A stretch of 40,363 bases of DNA, from the IMG/VR virus record IMGVR_UViG_3300022214_000002; one strand, given 5' to 3'. Origin of the DNA: a virus. Positions 22,512-40,363 of the stretch are shown piece after piece. The position numbers were made by a program, and so were the translations under genes. The stretch's first letter is position 1. Each line of letters opens with the position of its first letter. The notes beneath the pieces are model-generated. The model had not been told where the DNA came from. It did no database searches and worked only from the letters and a program-made list of their open reading frames with translations.

Positions 22512-22526
22512 CGTAATTCTCCATGT

Positions 22527-22550
22527 GGGGGCCAGGTTATTCTGGCCCCC
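22527..22550 (-). terminator. GC-rich hairpin downstream of the capsid-proximal genes (attenuator/terminator candidate)
   Basis: GGGGGCCAG (22527-22535) pairs with CTGGCCCCC (22542-22550), with a 6-nt loop. Lies between the stop at 22563 and the GGAG RBS of the next gene. Confidence 0.5.
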
Positions 22551-22562
22551 CGTTGATCTACA

Positions 22563-27201: not shown

Positions 27202-27524
27202 GATCGTTCCTTTCGTTTCTTTCGTTTATACTGATACAAAACGCCTACTGGTTCAAAGGACTTCTTGCCCCATTCAATAACATGAGCAGTATGTCCAACA
27301 AAGTAAATGGCAATGTCCGATTTAAAATACGGGAGCAACGCAAGACAGGCTTTCGTTCCTGTTCCAACTATACCAAGAATCATTAAGTGATCTGGGAAGA
27401 CACTATAAAAACACATCCCATCGTCGGCTACCGACACGTAACAGAAGTCCACCTTACTACTAAACTCAGTGGACAAGTCGGAACGTAACTCAGCCGGAAA
27501 TGTTCCTGGCGGATAGATGATCAT
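27189..27524 (-). CDS. Hypothetical protein (111 aa)
   Basis: TGATG coupling to the TerL stop. Confidence 0.55.
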   Translation of the reverse strand: MIIYPPGTFPAELRSDLSTEFSSKVDFCYVSVADDGMCFYSVFPDHLMILGIVGTGTKACLALLPYFKSDIAIYFVGHTAHVIEWGKKSFEPVGVLYQYKRKKRKERSCPQ

Positions 27525-28921
27525 CAGTCCTCCATCACGTTGAATTCCATGTCGGCTACAGTAGGAGCGTCGTGCATTTCGTCAAAGTCAATCTGAGCCT
27601 GATCACCAGCAGTAGTACTGTTTAGGTAGCGCCTGATAGCGATTGCCCCGTAGGTGAATGCTGACCCTCCGTGCGAGGCCCAGTCGTGGAACTCGTTGTC
27701 GCTGTACTCTTTCTTGTCTTCGTCGTACTCTCTGCGATAGCCTAAGAGGGCTCCCCAGCCTGACCTTTCCGGCACACGATGCGTGACGGCTGGTTTGTGG
27801 AAAAAGCTGATAGGGAATATCCTACGGCCAGCATCCACACGGTCAGCCACACCGAGTTTTTTAAGTTGGATAAAATGAACGCCAAGTCTCCGTGCTGTTT
27901 CGATGCGCGTCTGACCTGTGCCGATTTCAGTGCTCTTAACGTCGAACGGAGCAAAGTGTTTACCATAGCGGTACGTCTTGTCTCTGAGCAGCTTGGCAAA
28001 CTCTGGAATACCACCAGACTCCAAGGGCTCGTAGTCGATCCAGAACGGACGACCATTCTTCAGTTGAAAGAACCAGGTAACAAACTTCAAGCCTGTCCCA
28101 AGGTCTGATACCGTGTGAACAGGAAGATCCGGATCATACGGGTAGTTCCCGTATCGATCTTCTTCTTCACAGGCAATGCACTGGTCCGCAAAATAACTTC
28201 CAATCTGTACGCCAGCAAAAGATGTGTAAAACTCCTGCTGGATCTTTTCCTCAGGCATACCCGAACGTCGTTCGGCTTCGATCATCGAATCAGGAATCAG
28301 CCTGACTCCGTTCCAGTCAAGGATGTCTTCCGCCGTTAGCTTGGAGACTGCCCAGTCTGGATTGTCTTTATTTCTGTCGTAGAGTTCATATCCGTGATTG
28401 TGGCCTCTGGGCGTATAAATGAACATAGCCCATCCACCATTCTTTGCAAGGATGGGTCGGATATAGTCCCAGCCTGCGGCTTTTTGTACTGAGTACTCTG
28501 AGAGAACGGCTCCAACACAGTTTGTACCAAGCGCTGATGTATCAAACGTGTCGATACCAACAAGTTGGATTATTGATCCGTTAACAAGGGAAACTTGTAA
28601 CTCGGATTCATTCGGATCTCCTGTGATGATCTCTTTTGGAATGTAGTCACGGAAACGCATTCCGTCGTCTGTCATTCCATCCCAAATGATGCGCTTCGCT
28701 TGCTTGTGCGTCGGTAGAAAGTAAAAGTAAGTCCCTACCCTCTCAAGAGCCCGTGCAACCATGAAGTTAATCGCGGTCAAGTCTTTGCCAGCCCGACGAG
28801 GCCAGACGAGGATAAACCGCTTAAACCCTTCGTGCCATTTCACAAATGGGAATTCTTGATAGGGATAGGGATTATACTTCCAGTCTGGACTAAGATCCAT
28901 CTCTTGAATAATTTCAGGCAT
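27524..28921 (-). CDS. Terminase large subunit
   Basis: GGAGGA upstream. PYQEFPF...ILVWPRRAGKDLT Walker A region, 465 aa, acidic nuclease-domain residues in the C-terminal half. Confidence 0.9.
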   Translation of the reverse strand: MPEIIQEMDLSPDWKYNPYPYQEFPFVKWHEGFKRFILVWPRRAGKDLTAINFMVARALERVGTYFYFLPTHKQAKRIIWDGMTDDGMRFRDYIPKEIITGDPNESELQVSLVNGSIIQLVGIDTFDTSALGTNCVGAVLSEYSVQKAAGWDYIRPILAKNGGWAMFIYTPRGHNHGYELYDRNKDNPDWAVSKLTAEDILDWNGVRLIPDSMIEAERRSGMPEEKIQQEFYTSFAGVQIGSYFADQCIACEEEDRYGNYPYDPDLPVHTVSDLGTGLKFVTWFFQLKNGRPFWIDYEPLESGGIPEFAKLLRDKTYRYGKHFAPFDVKSTEIGTGQTRIETARRLGVHFIQLKKLGVADRVDAGRRIFPISFFHKPAVTHRVPERSGWGALLGYRREYDEDKKEYSDNEFHDWASHGGSAFTYGAIAIRRYLNSTTAGDQAQIDFDEMHDAPTVADMEFNVMED

Positions 28922-29777: not shown

Positions 29778-31187
29778 TCAATACTCCACGGTCTGGTTTG
29801 TCTTGGCCGTACTGTCTAACTTGTAAATCGTAGACTCTCGATACTCTTGTCCGTTGTACCAGGCTTTCCCTGGACCACGAAAGGCATTGAGTGAGAAGGC
29901 ACTTGTGTTCACTGACGGCACTGCATAGATCCAGTACTGCGACTCGGCTTCAAAGATATTCCCGACGATCTGCCATCCGCCAAAGGCATCGTTACCAGGC
30001 TCGTTCGACTTATCGATGTAGAGACCAACTTCTCCCCCACGAGAAATGTTGTTACTAAACACGCTCGTCTCTGTACTGTCGTTTGCAAGTTTGTAGTTAC
30101 GGATGTTGTCGAACGACGTGTTCCCAGAAATGATACAGGCCCCGCCGTATCCAGTCCGCTCTTCTATCCCGTTATTGCCGGAGGCATTGTTTGCGGTGTA
30201 GTGCCTGTGTCCAAATACTGTGTTATTCAGGATGCGACACCCAACGGTTCTGTTCTGACTATTCCCCCACACTTCGATCCCGTCTGATTCGTTTTCATAC
30301 ACGACGTTCCCTTGGATGGTGATATAGGGAGACATCTCGCTCCCAATCCCGTAGGACTCACCCAGCATGGGAAAGGCCAGCCGTGAGTTGTAATAGGAGA
30401 TGTTCTCGCGAATGATGACGTTTGCAGCCATGTGGCTGTAGATCCCATCTCCGTTTGCAAAGGTGCGACAGCGGCTAATCACGACATGTTGAATCAGATA
30501 TGGGTCCGTGGCTGTCCCGTCTAGGGACACGCCCCCGCGTCTGTTTCCATGCGCGACACACTTATCGATCGTGATATGGTGCGTATTCGGTATGGACGAG
30601 TTCTGCACTCGAATCCCATGTCCGTAGTTATTACGTGAGATCGCGCCTACCGACGTAATGTAGCTGCTTCCCCCTGCAATGAAGAGCCCGTGTCCACGTG
30701 TGGCCCCTGGTGTTGGTGACGACTCGGTGTTTGACTGTGTCACGGTTGAGTACATCTGAATATGTGTTACACTCCTCGTGACAAGCTGTGCGCCATACAA
30801 CCCCGTATTGGATGTGGGGCCTGTAATCGACACGTTCCGGATCACGAGGTAGTGACTGTCTTGAATCAAGAACCCGTAGGGCGTTGTGCCGGTGAGTGTC
30901 ACCGTGGCAGGTGTCCCTCCTGGGCATGACCAGTCATAGGTAATCGGAAGAGAACTTGTTCCCGCACGATTATGCAGCTCAACAGGAGGCTGCAACGGTC
31001 CGCACAAAAAGACAGTATCTCCTGGTGCGGGTGTGCACGACGGGTCCGTCAAGCCTTGACATGCATTGGATGCACTCGACCCCGATCCGTTGCCTGAATA
31101 GACTTGGGCGACATACAGGTTTGCAGCCAGAGTGAGTGATGGAAGACTCAACCCACATAAGACTACCGTACTAATTCTTTGGAGCAC
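29778..31187 (-). CDS. Right-handed parallel beta-helix protein (polysaccharide lyase/depolymerase-like) with N-terminal signal-peptide-like segment
   Basis: Repeated beta-helix signatures (NVSITG, HGIRVQNS, HGNRRGGVSLDG, ANGDGIYS, NESDGIEVWG, NNGIEE). GTG 31187 gives MLQRISTVVLCGLSLPSLTLAANLYVAQ. Alternative starts at 31256 and 31334. Confidence 0.75.
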   Translation of the reverse strand: MLQRISTVVLCGLSLPSLTLAANLYVAQVYSGNGSGSSASNACQGLTDPSCTPAPGDTVFLCGPLQPPVELHNRAGTSSLPITYDWSCPGGTPATVTLTGTTPYGFLIQDSHYLVIRNVSITGPTSNTGLYGAQLVTRSVTHIQMYSTVTQSNTESSPTPGATRGHGLFIAGGSSYITSVGAISRNNYGHGIRVQNSSIPNTHHITIDKCVAHGNRRGGVSLDGTATDPYLIQHVVISRCRTFANGDGIYSHMAANVIIRENISYYNSRLAFPMLGESYGIGSEMSPYITIQGNVVYENESDGIEVWGNSQNRTVGCRILNNTVFGHRHYTANNASGNNGIEERTGYGGACIISGNTSFDNIRNYKLANDSTETSVFSNNISRGGEVGLYIDKSNEPGNDAFGGWQIVGNIFEAESQYWIYAVPSVNTSAFSLNAFRGPGKAWYNGQEYRESTIYKLDSTAKTNQTVEY

Positions 31188-31467
31188 TAACCGTAGCAAA
31201 TACACGAACACCCCCAGTTGTGCTAATCCACCAATCTGACTTCCGAGAGATTGCATCAAGCTTGACTGTGTACCATCCCACCGGAACAGTCGTGCTAATG
31301 ATCTGCACGGGTGACGCCCCTGAAGGGTTGTCACTAATTTCTACAATCTGCGTCGTTGAGGCGACGTTGAATATGAGTGTGCCTAAGATCGCTCCTGGGC
31401 CTGATTTCGTTAACTGCGAATTGGCACTGCCCAAAGCTGTGCCTGGTGCAACGGTAATTAAGTGCAT
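31171..31467 (-). CDS. Hypothetical beta-rich protein (98 aa); first gene after the large non-coding region
   Basis: AAGGGAG 4 nt upstream of the ATG. Confidence 0.65.
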   Translation of the reverse strand: MHLITVAPGTALGSANSQLTKSGPGAILGTLIFNVASTTQIVEISDNPSGASPVQIISTTVPVGWYTVKLDAISRKSDWWISTTGGVRVFATVSAPKN

Positions 31468-31581
31468 GATGCTCCCTTTCTATTTTCTATGGCCGTTTTT
31501 AATACGATGTAAAAAATGGAATACTTGTTCACTGCTCTAGACGCACATGGACCTTGCTCGTTTTTAACCCCCACCCCCTTG

Positions 31582-31697
31582 ATCTACGTATAAACAACTA
31601 AGGGGACCCTTTGCTTAATGAAAAATACTTAGTACGTAGTAGTACTGTACGTAGAAACGAGTTACGTAGTTACAACTAGGTGGGCACATCTACGTGG
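31582..31697. repeat. Array of TACGTA palindromes (4 perfect copies plus 1 TACGTG)
   Basis: TACGTA at 31585, 31633, 31648 and 31663; TACGTG at 31691. The three TACGTAG copies are phased at exactly 15 bp. Confidence 0.8.
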
Positions 31698-31706
31698 AAA
31701 CAGAAG

Positions 31707-31880
31707 CACTAGTAATACACATAGTCTATGCCCCCTCACTAGTAAGACTTTACACCGTGGATTGGTCACTAGTAATACATTGCATCTAACTAGTAACTAG
31801 CTCCACGTTGTTACGCTAGTTTAGTAATACTCGTTATCTAGTATTACTAGTTATATATTATATTAATATATAATACTAGG
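31707..31880. repeat. Array of ACTAGT palindromes (5 perfect, 4 one-mismatch copies) ending in a 25-nt pure A/T tract
   Basis: CACTAGTAATACA at 31707 and 31767, and CACTAGTAAGAC at 31737 (30-bp phasing). ACTAGT also at 31789 and 31846. Palindrome CTAGTAtTACTAG at 31838-31850. A/T-only stretch 31851-31875. Confidence 0.8.
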
Positions 31881-32088
31881 GCCGGAATAGTAGCTGTTAG
31901 TCCTTGTGCCGATCGTTAAACGTGTCGATTCGATGCTGTATCTCACCAATCACGATAGCTAACAAGGCGACTGCCATGATCGTCCAGAATATGCTATCCA
32001 TTGTCTTAAACATCAGACATAATACCTTTCTAGTAGTTTGTCATACAATCGAGCAAATAATAAGACAGCAAGTAGTAGTAAATGCTCC

Positions 32089-32493
32089 TCAACTGAGTTC
32101 AGCATTGGTCGTAATCTCCTCAGGCTTGGGAGTGATATTCTTGGGGTCTTTCATTCCCTTTGTGGCGAATGCTGGTAACTTGACAACGGCCTTGATTGTA
32201 ACCTTAGGTGCCTCTTGTTTCTTGACTCCAACAAGACCTAGGTTAATTGCTTGATCGATTGCCTTGCCTTGTGTGGCATGATCCACCATAGGCTTGGTAT
32301 ACACGATCGTTCCCTTATAGTTAAACACCTTAACCTCTGTGGCCTGCATCCGCTTGACCGTCTTATCAAAGACCTTACGGAGCAATTGTGCTCTGTCTTC
32401 CTTCGTGATACCCGCTCTTGCGAATATCTCTTCGTTGATATCTGGGACTGTGGGGAGGTTTCTGACTGTGTTATCTTTTCGTGCCTTGCTCAT
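32089..32493 (-). CDS. Hypothetical protein (134 aa); weak resemblance to terminase small subunit
   Basis: The C-terminal DHATQGKAIDQAINLGLVG recalls the Terminase_2 C-terminal motif, but no N-terminal HTH was seen. It is separated from TerL by 3 kb. Confidence 0.5.
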   Translation of the reverse strand: MSKARKDNTVRNLPTVPDINEEIFARAGITKEDRAQLLRKVFDKTVKRMQATEVKVFNYKGTIVYTKPMVDHATQGKAIDQAINLGLVGVKKQEAPKVTIKAVVKLPAFATKGMKDPKNITPKPEEITTNAELS

Positions 32494-32691: not shown

Positions 32692-32814
32692 AATAAGGCC
32701 TCATACGTAGATTTTAGGGTATCTCATAAGATATAAGACGGCAAACTAGCCTTTTGTCTCACATAGGTCTAACCTGTTGATTTTATTATATGAAAAAATA
32801 TGTGGCTATCGTAC

Positions 32815-32843
32815 TTGACAAGTCAAACTGTAGCTGGTAGAGT
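32815..32843 (+). promoter_or_regulatory. Sigma70-like early promoter candidate for the rightward early operon
   Basis: TTGACA (32815-32820), a 17-nt spacer, then TAGAGT (32838-32843). Lies ~40 nt upstream of the first + strand ORF. Confidence 0.45.
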
Positions 32844-32952
32844 AGCCATTGACATGAGAGTGTCGTAAGAAAGGTAGGTGAGTTATGGTGACCATGTTTG
32901 ACGGAAAGACTAAGTTGAACATGGTCCTACTCACTCTTACATGGAGAGAATT

Positions 32953-36393: not shown

Positions 36394-36621
36394 ATGCCAA
36401 ATCAGTTACCAGAAACACAAGAAGAAATGGAATGGTTAAAGCGGAGATTCTTTAACCTAATGTGCTTCAGATTGGGTGGTGAAGTTACCGTGACACAGGC
36501 AGAACTGGAAGACGTTACACGGTTTGTAGAACGAACACAGATACTTTTGCTCCAACATCCTGATAAGCCAAACGAATTCTTGCTTAAGACGATACGAAGA
36601 AAGGGACCAGGAGAAACCTAG
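36394..36621 (+). CDS. Early protein (75 aa); last gene of the early operon
   Basis: GAGGAG upstream of the ATG. Confidence 0.6.
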   Translation: MPNQLPETQEEMEWLKRRFFNLMCFRLGGEVTVTQAELEDVTRFVERTQILLLQHPDKPNEFLLKTIRRKGPGET

Positions 36622-36712
36622 TATTATATTATATATATTATACTAGTATAACTAGTACTATATCACGTTGTATCTAGTTCGTAACGACAGTGAAGAACTA
36701 GAACTAGTAGAA
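36617..36712. promoter_or_regulatory. Second ACTAGT/A-T-rich element, immediately upstream of the sigma factor gene
   Basis: CCTAGTATTATAT (36617-36629). A/T-only stretch 36622-36642. ACTAGT at 36642, 36651 and 36703, plus three one-mismatch copies. Confidence 0.65.
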
Positions 36713-36726
36713 CGGGGGGGATTCAC

Positions 36727-37377
36727 ATGCAGCAAAGGGAATTCAAACAACTAGTGCGCCAGAGTATCACGAAGCTAAGGCAACAAGTAAGCAAGACTGG
36801 TATTGCCTATGATGATTGCCAGGATATTCTGGCTACTGTGTTTGATAGAGCGTACCGCAAGAAAGCCTATACTAGGCTATCGAAGGCTAAGGCCTTCTCA
36901 TACTTGGCGAGTCGCGTCTACTTTGCTGCACATGAATTCTTGCGACAAGAACAAAATAAGAAAACAAGAGAGTGTTTCTTACCAGACGATACCGAGAGTC
37001 CCTTGATCCGCTTTGTTGAAGAACATACCGTTCCGGTAACAGAGTGTCCGTTTTGTTTCCAAGAAACCCTAAACGCGCTAGGCACGTGTAGTGCCTGTCA
37101 TACTGCCTGTCCATCGTATGCTGTGCTCCATCGTGGAACATACTCGATTGAAACTGTAAGCCTAGCCTTGGACGAAGACGTAATGCAGAAGACAGACATC
37201 AATCAAGCCATAGAAAGCTTGAACCCGATGGAGCAGAAGGTCGTTAAAGCCTGCATCATGGGCAATGAAAGTCTCGAATCCTTTGCCCAAATTGAAGCGC
37301 TGAATAGGAAGACACTCTGGAGAATTTGGGTAAAAGCCCGTGAAAAGCTTACACAGAAATTAGCAGAATATGCCTGA
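36727..37377 (+). CDS. Sigma-70 family (ECF-like, regions 2 and 4) factor with a Cys-rich insertion in the linker
   Basis: Region 2-like: AYDDCQDILATVFDRAYRK...FSYLASRVYFAAHEFLRQ. Region 4-like: AIESLNPMEQKVVKACIMGNESLESFAQIEALNRKTLWRIWVKAREKL. The insertion is CPFC-x10-CSACHTAC. Confidence 0.6.
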   Translation: MQQREFKQLVRQSITKLRQQVSKTGIAYDDCQDILATVFDRAYRKKAYTRLSKAKAFSYLASRVYFAAHEFLRQEQNKKTRECFLPDDTESPLIRFVEEHTVPVTECPFCFQETLNALGTCSACHTACPSYAVLHRGTYSIETVSLALDEDVMQKTDINQAIESLNPMEQKVVKACIMGNESLESFAQIEALNRKTLWRIWVKAREKLTQKLAEYA

Positions 37378-38166: not shown

Positions 38167-40363
38167 TTAATAACAAGTTTGGTACTGTAGCTGAGTGCTC
38201 AGAGAACGCCAAGCTATCGCGTAAGGCTTGCCAGGAATGCGGATTGGCTAATACCTGCAATGAACCTTTCTTACGTCCGTATCTTCCCTTGAATTGGACT
38301 AGCGAATATTTATTTATTGTCGAGGTATCTAGCCAAGGCGAAGCAAACTACCCTAGGCGTGGCGTGTTCTTGTCAGAATCAGAAGGCAAGGTATTAGGTC
38401 GCGTTCTCTCAAGGGTTGGTCTGAACAAGGACCAAGTGGCTTTCTACCCTGTGCTCCGTTGCCGTCCGAACCTATCCGGCTCTAAGAAAGCTAAGATGCA
38501 CTCTCTTAGGGCTTGCCGTCCGTTTCTCTTGGATGCACTTAGAGAGGCTGAAGCAAAACATATCTTGCTATGTGGCGAAGCCTGTGTACGTGCGTTCACG
38601 AACTCAGGAAAGTCTAGCTCGATCAATACCACACGTGGACGTGAGCTATCACTAGACAACTACAAAGCCTACGCCACAGTGTCACTCAAGAGCCTTGTTG
38701 CAGACCCTCATGCTTCAGCAAGATTTACTGAAGACTTGCAACGGTTCAACCGACCGCTCTTGAAGTATCCAGGGATTCTACCTAGTGTATCTAAAAAGAT
38801 ACAGTCAAGTGTTGCACAAAAAACACAGTACCTCGGCTTCGATACCGAATTCAGTCCGGACCTTGCGCCGATTACCCTAGGAATCGCCACAGAGGCCAAC
38901 GCCCTGGGCGTAGGCATTGAGAAAAGTGCTCAGGCCCTACCTTACCTTCAGGATTCCATAATCGTAGGCCACAACGTCACTGTGGATGTCGAGAGTTTGA
39001 TAAGACTTCACTCCAAAACGTTGGACAAAGCCTTGAACAGGTGGTTACAGGGTGATCGTCTACGAGACACAAGCCTACTGGCTAGGTTGGCGGACGAGAA
39101 CAGAGGTAAGGGCGGGTACAAGCTGGAGAGTCTCGCGACCAGTCTCCTCAACGTCAAGGACTGGAAGGGACCTACTGAGGCACTGGGTACCGATTCGACA
39201 AAGTGGCCGAAGCATCTCCGCGACGAACGCTGTCGGTTAGATGCGTGGGCAACACTTCAGATTTATCGAGCACTCGAACCAGACGTTGAAGGCCCCGCTA
39301 GACTCTCACATAAGATAGCCATGACCTTGCGCCGCTTTTATTGGACTGGGGTGTACATCTCGAAGAAGAACTACCAGACCATGAAAGTGCAAGTCGAGAA
39401 AGAACGAGCGGCAGCACTCGGAGACCTCACACAATTTGCAAAGAAGTTTGGACTTAAGGATTTCTCTCCGACAAAAGACGATCACCTTAGAGATTACGTC
39501 TATGGAGAGAACGGAGTAGGGTTGCGGGTCGGCAAACTAACTAAGGGCGGCTTGCCCACTGTGTCTGTCAAGACCTTAAAAGAATTCAAAGACCGGCCCG
39601 CAATCTCTGCCCTGATTCAGTTTTCTAAATACGACAAGCTACTCTCCACGTACTGCGAGAGTCTTGCCAAGAAGTTCCAGCCAGTCAAGGATGGTATCTG
39701 GATTCCAGTTATCATTAATCCATTGGCAGCGAAGACAGGTAGGCGATCGAGCGCCGCACCAAACTTTCAGAACTGGCCGGTGGCTGTCCGCAAGATCATC
39801 ACGTCACGTTGGCAGAACGGAGTCATCGCCGACAACGACTACAGCAAGCTTGAGCCTATCTTAGGTGGATGGGTCACAGGAGAACCCAAGCTGACCGATT
39901 ACTTTGTGAAGCACTCAAACGGGTACATCAAGATCGGCGAAGACTTCTTTCAAACTTCAGTAGACAAGAACAGCGACCAGTACAAGGCGATGAAGTCCCT
40001 CGTGTTGGCGATTCTCTACAACAAAAAGAAATGGAGTCTTGCCGAGGATCTGTGGGTCAACTACGGAGTCAAGCTGAATACAAACTATGACGACCACATC
40101 GAAGAATCCGGCAAGCTCTTGGATAAGTTTCTTAAGCTGTTCCCGCGTGTGAAGAAGTACCACGAAACTACTGAAGACCTGGTCTTAACGGAAGGAGTAA
40201 TCTATAATGCCCTAGGCCAAGCCAGAAGGTTGCCGCTACCAATCGAACCACAGCGTTCAGACAAGTTAGCCTATAAGATCTACATGAAGTACAAAGCCCA
40301 CGTGATCAATCAGGCTATCAACTACCGCATTCAGAGTCTTGCAAGCTATGTCACTGGGTGTGC
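38145..40363 (+). CDS. DNA polymerase I family (PolA) with an N-terminal family-4 UDG-like domain and a 3'-5' exonuclease domain. Open at the window end; continues at nt 128-419 (836 aa in total).
   Basis: Own translation shows no stop up to the window end. UDG4-like: CQECGL..C and YLFIVEVSSQGEA..GKVLGRVLSRVGL..YPVLRCRP. Exo I/II: LGFDTEF and VGHNVTVDVESL. Motif A: DNDYSKLEPIL. AGGAG lies 10 nt upstream of the ATG. Confidence 0.9.
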   Translation, partial: MAKEVKVVNNKFGTVAECSENAKLSRKACQECGLANTCNEPFLRPYLPLNWTSEYLFIVEVSSQGEANYPRRGVFLSESEGKVLGRVLSRVGLNKDQVAFYPVLRCRPNLSGSKKAKMHSLRACRPFLLDALREAEAKHILLCGEACVRAFTNSGKSSSINTTRGRELSLDNYKAYATVSLKSLVADPHASARFTEDLQRFNRPLLKYPGILPSVSKKIQSSVAQKTQYLGFDTEFSPDLAPITLGIATEANALGVGIEKSAQALPYLQDSIIVGHNVTVDVESLIRLHSKTLDKALNRWLQGDRLRDTSLLARLADENRGKGGYKLESLATSLLNVKDWKGPTEALGTDSTKWPKHLRDERCRLDAWATLQIYRALEPDVEGPARLSHKIAMTLRRFYWTGVYISKKNYQTMKVQVEKERAAALGDLTQFAKKFGLKDFSPTKDDHLRDYVYGENGVGLRVGKLTKGGLPTVSVKTLKEFKDRPAISALIQFSKYDKLLSTYCESLAKKFQPVKDGIWIPVIINPLAAKTGRRSSAAPNFQNWPVAVRKIITSRWQNGVIADNDYSKLEPILGGWVTGEPKLTDYFVKHSNGYIKIGEDFFQTSVDKNSDQYKAMKSLVLAILYNKKKWSLAEDLWVNYGVKLNTNYDDHIEESGKLLDKFLKLFPRVKKYHETTEDLVLTEGVIYNALGQARRLPLPIEPQRSDKLAYKIYMKYKAHVINQAINYRIQSLASYVTGC
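40237..40363. repeat. Terminal direct repeat, copy 2 (identical to 1-127)
   Basis: Read directly; an exact 127/127 match to the window start. Confidence 0.95.

What the first reader, a model, noticed from the sequence alone, without database searches (positions are those of the whole stretch)
31582..31880. Largest non-coding region holds two phased arrays of palindromic hexamers (TACGTA, ACTAGT) next to a pure A/T tract
The 430-nt gap between the leftward mini-operon and the first late gene is the largest non-coding stretch in the genome. It contains TACGTA at 31585, 31633, 31648 and 31663, plus TACGTG at 31691; three TACGTAG copies are exactly 15 bp apart. It also contains ACTAGT at 31708, 31738, 31768, 31789 and 31846, plus four one-mismatch copies. 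The 12-13-mers CACTAGTAATACA, CACTAGTAAGAC and CACTAGTAATACA are exactly 30 bp apart. The perfect palindrome CTAGTAtTACTAG lies at 31838-31850, followed by 25 nt of only A/T.

A palindromic hexamer is expected only about 10 times in 40 kb, and CTAG is usually avoided, so these clusters are far from random. No gene call explains them. Three candidate roles are:
- an operator or promoter array for the early-to-late switch, possibly read by the phage sigma factor or another phage DNA-binding protein;
- a replication origin (iterons plus an A/T unwinding element);
- a packaging (pac) site, by analogy with the repeated hexamers of the phage P1 pac site and given the adjacent small-terminase-like gene.
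Basis: partly seen in the sequence, partly recalled or inferred. Interest (0 to 1): 0.75.

Follow-up and report, generated by a model that had tools for sequence, protein, structure and literature searches.

The report
Phage late-gene promoter and packaging-site region
The clustered palindromic hexamers are real and conserved, and they mark the control region in front of an uncultured phage's late genes: most likely a promoter read by the phage's own sigma factor, followed by repeated protein-binding sites around a probable DNA packaging cut site.

Summary
**Observation: confirmed.**
- Every coordinate is correct.
- The TACGTA, ACTAGT and CTAG clusters exceed all 300 dinucleotide-preserving shuffles.
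- Eight of the ten ACTAGT copies in the genome lie in two control regions.

**Interpretation: partly supported.** The 429-nt gap has four parts.
1. **Promoter module.** The A/T tract and the adjacent CTAG-rich 70 nt form one copy. A second copy lies directly upstream of the 216-aa gene. Profile and fold searches show that gene encodes a divergent ECF-type sigma factor. The module carries GTAAnn-N14-16-ACTA, the form of the validated sigma-dependent late promoters of phage 7-11.
2. **ACTAGT repeats.** Three CACTAGTAAtAC sites lie 30 bp apart.
3. **CTACGTAG array.** Its copy number and spacing vary between relatives.
4. **Conserved core.** A single-copy core of about 110 nt is conserved in all relatives.

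Between parts 2 and 3, two independent contigs from two related phages end within 2 nt of each other. One is fused to a sequencing adapter. This suggests a physical genome end.

**Best reading:** a sigma-dependent late promoter plus a pac/terminus region flanked by binding-site arrays. An iteron origin is the least supported role.

It is a new member of known kinds, and of moderate interest.

The parts
31897..32013 (-). 38-aa small hydrophobic protein gene, the last gene of the leftward early mini-operon and the upstream boundary of the gap
   Evidence: Called in the JGI annotation. Translation. Homologous ORF ends are seen in L056, L070 and L062.
31838..31879 (.). A/T-rich quasi-palindrome CTAGTA...TACTAG, including the 25-nt pure A/T run at 31851-31875. 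It is the upstream element of the promoter module.
   Evidence: It is conserved in L026, L031, L056, L070 and L035. A second copy lies at 36618-36646 (family D3). It has no significant RNA fold.
31822..31851 (-). ACTAGTA-N2-ACTAGA dyad and inverted repeat TAGTAATACT-N8-AGTATTACTA. On the minus strand it reads GTAATA-N16-ACTA (candidate promoter P1). It contains the ACTAGT at 31846.
   Evidence: (I10). The minus-strand GTAATA-N16-ACTA is kept in L056 and L070. The dyad with 9-bp spacing is present in all nine module copies.
31780..31815 (-). Core of the promoter module, CTAGCGTAACAACGTGGAGCTAGTTACTAGTT (GTAACA-N14-ACTA). It points toward the late genes and contains the ACTAGT at 31789.
   Evidence: It is homologous to 36673-36713 and to L026 7201-7240 and L031 3339-3378. 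Only two copies exist per genome. Its form matches the phage 7-11 late promoters, GTAAtg-N16-aCTA.
31707..31779 (+). Three (C)ACTAGTAA(T/G)AC(A) sites spaced exactly 30 bp apart (31707, 31737, 31767), all in one orientation
   Evidence: The spacing is identical in L056 and L070, 28/31 bp in L026, and lost in L031, L030, L035 and L028.
31690..31712 (-). Conserved junction CTAGTGCTTCTG|TTTCCACGTAG, with a candidate physical DNA end at 31699-31701
   Evidence: JGI contig Ga0224495_10142420 ends at 31701. Logan contig L033, from a related phage, starts with a TruSeq adapter fused to the position homologous to 31699. The element CTG-N2-3-TTCAC is kept even in L030 and L035.
31585..31697 (.). Array of (C)TACGTA(G) palindromes (31585, 31633, 31648, 31663) plus CACGTAG (31691). 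This segment is hypervariable between strains.
   Evidence: Relatives carry 3-11 copies at varying spacing. The array is replaced by CCTTAG/CTAAG repeats in L035 and AAGTAAAAA repeats in L028.
31485..31612 (-). Single-copy conserved core: GGGTCCCCTTAG..TACGTAGATCAAGGGGGTGGGGGTTAAAAA..GTGCGTCTAGA..GAACAAGTATTCCATTTTTT..TATTAA..CGGCCATAGA
   Evidence: It is aligned across seven relatives with TerL identity down to 63-66%. It occurs once in the genome. It has no consensus RNA structure and no Rfam match.
31171..31467 (-). First late gene (98 aa), preceded by the ribosome-binding site AAAGGGAG
   Evidence: It is conserved as a 99-108 aa first gene in L026, L031, L034, L035, L028 and L030.
36618..36726 (+). 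Second copy of the module: A/T tract, ACTAGTATAACTAGTA dyad and GTAACG-N16-ACTA, ending 20 nt before the sigma gene's ATG (ACTA at 36703-36706, ATG at 36727). It carries ACTAGT at 36642, 36651 and 36703.
   Evidence: It is conserved upstream of the sigma gene in L026, L037 and L039.
36727..37377 (+). 216-aa divergent ECF-type sigma factor with a C4 zinc-ribbon insert between the sigma2 and sigma4 domains
   Evidence: A profile of 44 homologues hits PDB entry 5uxx (a sigma factor) in both domains. Some family members hit Pfam Sigma70_r2, r4 and ECF. The AlphaFold2 model has pLDDT 87.8. Nearly all top Foldseek hits are sigma factors, mostly ECF type.

Best explanation
The gap is the control region of the late (structural and packaging) operon of a T7-supergroup podovirus that lacks its own RNA polymerase. 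It combines two functions.

(a) Late promoter. At the end nearest the early mini-operon there is an A/T tract, an ACTAGT dyad and a bipartite GTAAC-N14-16-ACTAGT element. Together they form a promoter read by host core RNA polymerase carrying the phage's own ECF-type sigma factor. The same module precedes the sigma gene, which would give positive autoregulation. So two of the five ACTAGT copies, most of the one-mismatch copies and the A/T tract are parts of this promoter module.

(b) Packaging or terminus region. Downstream, within the roughly 310-nt leader, the three 30-bp-spaced CACTAGTAAtAC sites lie on one side of a conserved junction (about 31700). The variable CTACGTAG array and the single-copy GGGTCCCC/G-run core lie on the other side. 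The junction is where virion DNA is cut: a pac cut, or one boundary of a short terminal repeat. The arrays are binding sites that position the terminase complex, with packaging running toward the late genes.

What is shown: the motif clustering, the conservation, the module duplication, the sigma identity and the coincident contig ends.

What is inferred: who binds each element, the transcription start, and that the contig ends reflect a real terminus.
For: Promoter part:
- No sigma70-like promoter lies in the gap, whereas strong ones sit in the early divergent region at 32815/32826.
- The module occurs exactly twice per genome, both times pointing at the downstream gene.
- Nine copies from six phages align around CTAG-c-GTAACA-ACGTGaAG-CTAG-ACnAGTA.
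- In four phages the module ends at a fixed short distance from the sigma gene's ATG (39-40 nt from the GTAAC hexamer), which suits a short leader carrying a ribosome-binding site.
- The 216-aa protein is an ECF-type sigma factor.
- Experimentally mapped late promoters of the phage 7-11 sigma factor are GTAAtg-N16-aCTA (PMC8948821). The copy at 36681-36706 matches this form exactly, as does 31847-31822.

Packaging part:
- The JGI contig L021 (100% identical to the window) ends at 31701.
- The Logan contig L033, from a phage with 80% TerL identity, begins with ...GCTCTTCCGATCT fused to the base homologous to 31699. It is the only TruSeq adapter in all the loci fetched.
- By my estimate, the chance that one of about 40 contig ends falls within 2 nt of that site is about 0.005.
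- Both contigs run toward the late genes. That pattern suits a pac cut or a left terminal-repeat boundary.
- The junction motif is conserved out to relatives with about 63-65% TerL identity.
- The core is single-copy and conserved in all relatives.
- The arrays differ between lineages while their flanks stay conserved, as expected for sites co-evolving with a binding protein.
- In the closest cultured relative, Alteromonas phage ZP6, the PhageTerm-assigned terminus lies in a non-coding region of about 480 nt upstream of the packaging genes. That region also holds short repeat arrays and the motif GGGTCCCC.

Precedents:
- The P1 pac site has seven hexanucleotide repeats.
- T7-like genomes with terminal repeats assemble as circles.
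Against: - No transcription start, binding or read-start data exist.
- Two contig ends are thin evidence. Logan contigs of a relative also end recurrently at a variable, non-terminal site, and L062 ends inside the core simply because of strain mosaicism.
- Seven other contigs cross the junction, and the assemblies are circular.
- No small terminase was identified next to the region.
- In L037 and L039 the position matching the 7-11 '-10' element reads ACGA or ACAA rather than ACTA, and the focal copy has N14 rather than N16. The exact promoter elements are therefore uncertain.
- In L030 a CTACGAG/CTACGTAG array also sits upstream of the sigma operon. That fits a transcriptional regulator better than a terminase.
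- The 15-bp phasing is unique to this genome.
Confidence: 0.4

Rival explanations
1. The region is purely transcriptional. It is only the late promoter plus its leader. The ACTAGT and CTACGTAG arrays are operators for one or two phage (or host) DNA-binding regulators that delay or tune late transcription, by roadblock or looping. The contig ends are assembly accidents.
For: - The arrays lie between the putative promoter and the first late gene.
- ACTAGT-type sites are shared between the late region and the sigma gene's upstream region.
- In L030, CTACGAG/CTACGTAG repeats lie between a sigma70-like promoter and the sigma operon as well as in the focal homologue. This is the signature of a regulon.
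- The dyad TACTAGTATAACTAGTA looks like a classical dimer operator.
- Recurrent non-terminal contig ends do occur in this family.
Against: - It does not explain the adapter-fused end, or the second contig end 2 nt away in another phage.
- It does not explain why the most conserved element is a single-copy 110-nt core with no promoter-like features.
- No candidate regulator was identified: Pfam, PHROGs and PDB profile searches of the neighbouring genes found nothing.
- The hypervariable copy number of CTACGTAG among co-occurring strains is unusual for operators.
Confidence: 0.27
2. The region is a replication origin. The repeats are iterons for an initiator and the A/T tract is the unwinding element. 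Alternatively it is a T7-style origin, in which a promoter fires next to an A/T-rich stretch to prime replication.
For: - A pure A/T tract lies next to repeated motifs.
- The cumulative GC skew reaches its minimum around 31-34 kb.
- The replisome is T7-like: family A DNA polymerase, Toprim primase and a DnaB-like helicase. From general knowledge, T7 origins are promoters adjacent to A/T-rich DNA.
- A plus-strand GTAATA-N16-ACTA at 31824-31849 would fire into the A/T tract.
Against: - The GC-skew switch coincides with the switch in gene orientation, so it is not independent evidence.
- No initiator-like gene and no DnaA boxes were found.
- The A/T tract is duplicated upstream of the sigma gene, where it behaves as part of a promoter module.
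- The plus-strand promoter-like match is not conserved in L056 or L070.
- The repeat spacings of 30 and 15 bp, and the non-conserved phasing, do not resemble classical iterons.
- T7-type replication needs no iterons.
Confidence: 0.1
3. The arrays have no sequence-specific function. They are products of slippage or recombination in a fast-evolving non-coding spacer near a genome end or recombination hot spot. Only the promoter module and the core are functional.
For: - The CTACGTAG segment varies greatly in length and copy number, even among strains from one sample.
- L062 shows a recombination breakpoint in this region.
- Phasing is not conserved.
Against: - The same 8-bp palindrome is maintained in five lineages despite turnover of the spacers.
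- The three ACTAGT sites and their exact 30-bp spacing are identical in W, L056 and L070.
- The last TACGTAG copy always lies 11-13 nt before the G-run.
Confidence: 0.08

Closest known systems
Late promoters of Salmonella phage 7-11, read by its sigma factor gp47 (and of phiEco32, read by gp36)
   Same: - A podovirus without its own RNA polymerase encodes a divergent sigma factor that directs late transcription.
- The 7-11 promoters are bipartite, GTAAtg-N16-aCTA, with the start 6-9 nt downstream.
- The module here has GTAACG-N16-ACTA upstream of the sigma gene, and GTAATA-N16-ACTA and GTAACA-N14-ACTA upstream of the late operon.
   Different: - tblastn of this sigma factor against 50,697 phage records found no match at E<=0.01.
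- It has a zinc-ribbon insert.
- Only two promoter copies exist per genome, against eight in 7-11.
- One copy precedes the sigma gene itself, whereas no gp47 consensus was found before gene 47 in 7-11.
- Each copy is preceded by an A/T tract and an ACTAGT dyad.
- Nothing has been tested experimentally.
Bacteriophage P1 pac site
   Same: - Clusters of short hexanucleotide repeats on both sides of the terminase cut; P1 has seven repeats.
- The site is single-copy.
- One-sided ends with packaging in one direction would explain why both contigs run toward the late genes.
   Different: - From general knowledge, the P1 hexamers are TGATCA/G, carry Dam sites and lie inside the pacA gene.
- Here two different motif families (ACTAGT-type and CTACGTAG) lie in non-coding DNA, with no GATC in them.
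- No PacA/PacB or small terminase homologue was found.
- Cutting is inferred from only two contig ends.
Lambda cos (cosQ-cosN-cosB) lying inside the late transcription unit
   Same: From general knowledge, repeated small-terminase binding sites (R1-R3) lie on the side of the cut facing the packaging genes. The late promoter pR' reads across the joined ends, so late structural genes are expressed only from circular or concatemeric DNA. The layout proposed here (promoter, cut site, arrays, late genes) is the same.
   Different: - No evidence for cohesive ends.
- No homology to Nu1 or A.
- The motif sequences are unrelated.
- The IHF site was not tested.
T7-group terminal repeats with flanking arrays of short repeats, and T7 origins (a promoter next to A/T-rich DNA)
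   Same: - The phage belongs to the T7 supergroup: portal PF12236, family A DNA polymerase and primase/helicase.
- From memory, T7 has arrays of a short repeated heptamer next to its 160-bp terminal repeat.
- Genomes with terminal repeats assemble as circles.
- A terminal repeat of about 120-230 bp would fit between 31700 and the first late gene.
   Different: - No phage RNA polymerase.
- The genes lie in two opposed arms rather than one direction.
- A terminal repeat cannot be seen in a collapsed assembly.
- The function of the T7 arrays is itself unknown.
Iteron-type replication origins (lambda ori, P4, plasmids)
   Same: Repeated short motifs next to an A/T-rich tract.
   Different: - No initiator gene was found.
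- The motifs are palindromic or 11-13-mers at 30 and 15 bp, rather than about 20-bp direct repeats in helical phase.
- The A/T tract is duplicated at a promoter.
- No DnaA boxes were found.

Membership tests
Phage sigma-dependent late promoter (7-11 / phiEco32 type) | The phage encodes its own sigma factor | tested here: met
   The 216-aa protein gives a profile hit to sigma factor 5uxx in both the sigma2 and sigma4 domains. Some family members hit Pfam Sigma70_r2, r4 and ECF. The AlphaFold2 model has pLDDT 87.8 and its top Foldseek hits are almost all ECF or other sigma factors.
Phage sigma-dependent late promoter (7-11 / phiEco32 type) | A conserved non-sigma70 bipartite motif at a fixed distance upstream of late or middle genes, in the correct orientation | tested here: met
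   GTAAnn-N14-16-ACTA lies at 36681-36706, 31847-31822 and 31814-31791. Nine aligned copies come from six phages. No sigma70-like promoter lies in the gap. Caveat: only two loci per genome, and the '-10' position varies in L037 and L039.
Phage sigma-dependent late promoter (7-11 / phiEco32 type) | Transcription starts 6-9 nt downstream and depends on the phage sigma factor | not testable with these tools
   This needs primer extension, dRNA-seq or in vitro transcription.
Terminase recognition / cleavage site (pac, cos or terminal-repeat boundary) | A physical end of virion DNA maps to the site | tested here: inconclusive
   Two contig ends from two phages lie 2 nt apart, and one is adapter-fused. 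However, other contigs cross the site, and non-terminal recurrent contig ends exist in this family.
Terminase recognition / cleavage site (pac, cos or terminal-repeat boundary) | Single copy per genome, conserved with the terminase lineage | tested here: met
   The core and the junction are single-copy. They are conserved in relatives down to about 63-66% TerL identity.
Terminase recognition / cleavage site (pac, cos or terminal-repeat boundary) | Within or next to the terminase genes, with an identifiable small terminase | tested here: inconclusive
   TerL (27524-28921) lies 2.5 kb downstream in the same operon. Neither the 134-aa nor the 145-aa protein could be shown to be a small terminase.
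P1-type pac site | TGATCA/G hexamers with Dam (GATC) methylation control | tested here: not met
   The hexamers here are ACTAGT and TACGTA and contain no GATC. Only the architecture resembles P1.
T7-type direct terminal repeat | An identical sequence of 150-500 bp at both ends of the virion DNA | not testable with these tools
   The assembly is circular with a 127-nt k-mer overlap inside the polymerase gene. A terminal repeat would be collapsed, as happened for P-SSP7.
Iteron replication origin | Direct repeats bound by a cognate initiator encoded nearby | tested here: not met
   No initiator-like family was found in any neighbouring or early ORF. The repeats are palindromic or in mixed orientation.
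Iteron replication origin | An A/T-rich unwinding element, with or without DnaA boxes, adjacent to the repeats | tested here: inconclusive
   An A/T tract is present (31851-31875), but it is duplicated in the sigma promoter module. No DnaA box lies in the region.
Structured RNA (leader, riboswitch, sRNA) | Stable or covarying secondary structure, or an Rfam match | tested here: not met
   Rfam gave only a weak match outside the gap at 32082-32131 (E = 4.8). RNAalifold predicted 0 pairs. Fold z-scores were +0.06 and -0.22 for the two strands. The A/T tract folds no better than shuffles.

The most novel reading that the evidence does not exclude
The packaging cut site lies inside the leader of the late operon, between the sigma-dependent late promoter and the late genes. 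In the linear virion DNA the promoter would then sit at one end of the genome and the genes it drives at the other. Late transcription could happen only after the ends are joined or concatemers form. Two different palindromic site families (ACTAGT-type and CTACGTAG) would mark the two sides of the cut for the terminase. One of them would be shared with the autoregulated promoter of a previously undescribed family of zinc-ribbon ECF sigma factors, coupling replication, late transcription and packaging in a single 430-nt element.
Probability: 0.2. Interest if true: 0.6.

Novelty: new member of a known kind. Interest (0 to 1): 0.42.

Why it matters
If this reading is right, the region gives a complete and testable regulatory map for an uncultured group of RNA-polymerase-less T7-supergroup podoviruses found in sediment and water metagenomes.
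- It proposes a phage ECF-type sigma factor with a zinc-ribbon insert, and that factor's autoregulated and late promoters.
- It proposes the genome terminus or pac site.

Knowing the terminus and the promoters would allow:
- correct linear genome maps;
- prediction of packaging mode and transduction potential;
- reuse of the sigma/promoter pair as an orthogonal expression part.

The approach also shows that adapter-fused and coincident contig ends in public assemblies can point to phage termini without the raw reads.

Tried and rejected
- **Cultured close relative.** blastn of the region against 50,697 phage records found no match. tblastn of the sigma factor also found none.
- **IMG/VR.** It holds only distant TerL relatives, at 37% identity or less. 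The core-pattern scan there gave only an unrelated phage.
- **Genome collection.** The scan gave no family member, so there is no host clue.
- **Structured RNA.** Rejected: Rfam, RNAalifold and fold z-scores were all negative.
- **tRNA.** None found.
- **Small ORFs in the gap.** None convincing.
- **Classic tandem repeats.** Tandem Repeats Finder reports only weak rows. The 30-bp units share only the 11-13-mer, so they are spaced sites rather than duplications.
- **Multi-copy promoter.** Rejected: nhmmer finds only two module copies per genome.
- **134-aa or 145-aa protein as small terminase.** Pfam, PHROGs, PDB profile searches, and BLASTP and hhalign against the ZP6 and a Terminase_2 TerS were all negative or marginal; the best was E = 0.018 pairwise.
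- **More contig ends to test the terminus.** A repeat look-up on P0006 showed recurrent ends at a variable tail-fibre region, not in the focal region.
- **ACTAGT depletion outside the control regions.** It is significant against dinucleotide expectation (2 observed against 9.1 expected). It is explained by general CTAG-pentamer depletion (2.9 expected under a maximum-order Markov model).
- **DnaA boxes.** None in the region.
- **ParB-like domain.** Not found in the ORFs scanned.
Full report
**1. What the window is**

The 40,363-nt window is a circular assembly: bases 1-127 equal 40237-40363. It is JGI contig Ga0224510_10000303, and the same phage was recovered in several other samples.

It is a T7-supergroup-like podovirus.
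- It has a PF12236 portal, a family A DNA polymerase, a Toprim primase, a DnaB-like helicase and endonuclease VII.
- It has no phage RNA polymerase.

The genes lie in two arms.
- Early and replication genes are on the plus strand, from 32941 across the window junction to 9024.
- Late genes are on the minus strand, from 31467 down to 9166.
- A short leftward early operon (64, 134, 30 and 38 aa) ends at 31897.

Strong sigma70-type divergent promoters lie at 32815 (plus strand) and 32826 (minus strand). None lies in the focal gap 31468-31896.

**2. The observation**

None of 300 dinucleotide-preserving shuffles of the genome reaches the observed clustering of TACGTA, ACTAGT or CTAG. Eight of the ten ACTAGT copies lie in this gap or in the 109 nt upstream of the 216-aa gene.

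The repeated ACTAGT unit is really an asymmetric 11-13-mer, (C)ACTAGTAAtAC(A). It has plus-strand copies at 31708, 31738 and 31768 and an inverted copy at 31851-31841.

**3. Relatives**

No cultured phage matches the DNA. TerL homologues at 61-83% identity exist in public assemblies.

I recovered the homologous intergenic region from these sources:
- L026 (83% TerL identity), L031-L033 (80%), L034 (79%), L030 (65%), L035 (63%) and L028 (66%);
- three closer strains, L056, L070 and L062, from a metagenome pattern scan.

The alignments show four conserved blocks separated by variable DNA.
- The A/T tract plus a CTAG-rich segment of about 70 nt.
- The three ACTAGT sites and the junction CTAGTGCTTCTG/TTTCCACGTAG.
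- A hypervariable segment holding 3-11 CTACGTAG-type palindromes. More distant lineages carry CCTTAG/CTAAG repeats (L035) or AAGTAAAAA repeats (L028) instead.
- A core of about 110 nt: GGGTCCCC..TACGTAGATC..GGGGGTGGGGGTTAAAAA..GTGCGT..AACAAGTATTCCATTTTTT..TATTAA..CGGCCATAGA. It is conserved in every relative and occurs once per genome.

The 21/30/30 ACTAGT spacing is identical in W (this window), L056 and L070. The 15-bp TACGTAG phasing is not conserved anywhere.

So the hexamers are conserved features. Their precise phasing is only partly conserved.

**4. The promoter module**

A whole-genome repeat search linked 31838-31870 to 36618-36650. The region upstream of the 216-aa gene holds the same series of elements:
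- an A/T tract flanked by CTAGTA and TACTAG;
- an ACTAGTA-N2-ACTAGTA dyad;
- the stretch CTAGt-CGTAAC-ACGTGaAG-aCTAGAACTAGTAG.

The module is conserved upstream of the orthologous gene in L026, L037 and L039. It is conserved at the distal end of the focal region in W, L056, L070, L026 and L031. nhmmer finds only these two copies per genome.

Both copies point at the downstream gene. In the four sigma-gene copies the GTAAC element (counted as the hexamer GTAACN) lies 39-40 nt before the ATG.

**5. The sigma factor**

Pfam alone does not recognise the 216-aa protein. Four further lines of evidence identify it.
- An HMMER scan of 1.8 billion representative proteins found a small family of 56 clusters.
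- A 44-sequence profile hits the ECF sigma factor 5uxx in both the sigma2 and sigma4 domains (E = 8e-6), plus many sigma4 domains.
- Several family members hit Sigma70_r2, Sigma70_r4 and Sigma70_ECF.
- An AlphaFold2 model with pLDDT 87.8 retrieves mostly ECF sigma factors (M. tuberculosis SigH and SigL, E. coli SigE, SigW, AlgU) among the top Foldseek hits.

Four invariant cysteines form a zinc-ribbon-like insert between the two domains.

The published late promoters of phage 7-11, read by its own sigma factor, are GTAAtg-N16-aCTA with the start 6-9 nt downstream (PMC8948821).
- The copy upstream of the sigma gene reads GTAACG-N16-ACTA (36681-36706).
- The focal region has GTAATA-N16-ACTA (31847-31822, kept in L056 and L070) and GTAACA-N14-ACTA (31814-31791) on the late-gene strand.

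I therefore read the A/T tract, the ACTAGT at 31846 and 31789, and most of the one-mismatch copies as parts of a sigma-dependent late promoter whose twin autoregulates the sigma gene. Who binds it, and where transcription starts, are inferred.

**6. The arrays and the probable DNA end**

The three 30-bp-spaced ACTAGT sites and the CTACGTAG array lie downstream of that promoter, in a leader of about 310 nt with no RNA structure.

Two contigs end between the arrays.
- JGI contig Ga0224495_10142420 (1,027 nt, identical to the window) ends at 31701.
- Logan contig L033, from the phage with 80% TerL identity, begins with the Illumina adapter ...GCTCTTCCGATCT joined to the base homologous to 31699. 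It is the only TruSeq adapter in all the loci fetched.

Both contigs run toward the late genes. By my estimate, about 40 contig ends in 40 kb give roughly a 0.005 chance of such a coincidence.

Supporting context:
- The junction motif, CTG-N2-3-TTCAC after an ACTAGT site, persists even in L030 and L035.
- In the closest cultured relative, Alteromonas phage ZP6 (38% TerL identity), termini were set with PhageTerm.
- Those termini fall in a non-coding stretch of about 480 nt upstream of the packaging genes. It contains short repeat arrays (CGCGCAA, ACGCGT) and GGGTCCCC on both sides of the end.
- GGGTCCCC is also a conserved part of the core here.

Known precedents are the P1 pac site with seven hexanucleotide repeats, lambda cosB (general knowledge) and T7-like terminal repeats that assemble as circles.

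Cautions:
- Other contigs cross the junction.
- Recurrent non-terminal contig ends exist in a relative.
- L062 ends inside the core because of strain mosaicism.
- No small terminase could be identified.

**7. Weighing the roles**

| Role | Main support | Main problems | Probability |
|---|---|---|---|
| Sigma-dependent late promoter plus a packaging/terminus region flanked by binding-site arrays | Sections 4-6 | Thin end evidence; nothing tested experimentally | 0.40 |
| Purely transcriptional control region with operator arrays | L030 also has CTACGAG/CTACGTAG repeats upstream of its sigma operon | Does not explain the contig ends or the single-copy core | 0.27 |
| Replication origin | A/T tract; a GC-skew minimum confounded by gene orientation | No initiator, no DnaA boxes, A/T tract duplicated in a promoter, T7-like replisome | 0.10 |
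| Non-functional repeats | Hypervariable array | Motif and spacing conserved in close relatives | 0.08 |

**8. Novelty**

Each component has a known counterpart: phage sigma-dependent promoters, pac/cos sites with repeated binding sites, and a late promoter reading across joined ends as in lambda. This is therefore a new member of known kinds, in an undescribed phage group with a new zinc-ribbon ECF sigma family.

The most novel reading not excluded is that the cut site separates the late promoter from the late genes in virion DNA. Late transcription would then require end joining, and one site family would be shared between the promoter and the terminase. I give this a probability of about 0.2.

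Noticed in passing
window, whole genome: The palindrome TTCGAA occurs 0 times against about 12 expected from dinucleotide composition. This suggests avoidance of a restriction site.
   Followed up: no
window 36727-37377: The sigma factor belongs to a small family (56 clusters at 50% identity) of ECF-like sigma factors. They carry an invariant four-cysteine zinc-ribbon insert between sigma2 and sigma4. Pfam does not recognise the window's own member.
   Followed up: yes
window 31171-31540: The gene calls conflict. ENA calls the 98-aa ORF plus a 409-aa beta-helix protein. JGI calls a 492-aa beta-helix protein plus an antisense 80-aa ORF. The mechanical ORF list gives 518 aa. Conservation of a 99-108 aa first late gene in relatives favours the 98-aa call.
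   Followed up: partly
L030:3739-3870 (minus strand) and L030:2710-2790: In the relative with 65% TerL identity, five CTACGAG/CTACGTAG copies and a perfect hairpin (CCTCGTTAC-AACA-GTAACGAGG) lie between a sigma70-like promoter and the 85-aa gene that precedes the putative sigma gene. The same promoter sequence, TTGAACAAA..CTAGTC.TATACATGACGA, recurs before the next gene.
   Followed up: partly
L062 (Ga0222714_10240121), homologous to window about 31537: This strain is a mosaic. It is identical to the window through both arrays, then switches to the L070-type sequence in the middle of the conserved core. That indicates a recombination breakpoint inside the core.
   Followed up: no
L137, L200, L204 (IMG/VR contigs): An unrelated phage has GAGGGTGGGGGTTAAAAAC immediately after a Pfam Terminase_2 small terminase gene, in a 360-nt gap. 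This may be chance, because the loci were selected with that pattern.
   Followed up: partly
window 31690-31712 and 36641-36657: From memory only: the junction CTGTTTCCACGTAG resembles half of a chromosomal parS site (TGTTNCACGTGAAACA), and the dyad TACTAGTATAACTAGTA resembles the E. coli trp operator. Neither resemblance was tested.
   Followed up: no
window 32780-32845: Strong divergent sigma70-type promoters (TTGACA-17-TAGAGT with an upstream TG, and TTGACT on the other strand) mark the early control region between the two gene arms.
   Followed up: no
window about 22515-22560 (minus strand): A G+C-rich hairpin, CGGGGGGCCAG...CTGGCCCCC, follows the capsid-region genes. It is a likely intrinsic terminator or attenuator inside the late operon.
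   Followed up: no
L122-L127 (Logan contigs of the P0006 phage): Many independent contigs of one relative begin at the same base, 155 nt upstream of a 211-aa gene next to a collagen-like gene. This is probably a strain-variable tail-fibre boundary. It warns that recurrent contig ends need not be genome termini.
   Followed up: partly
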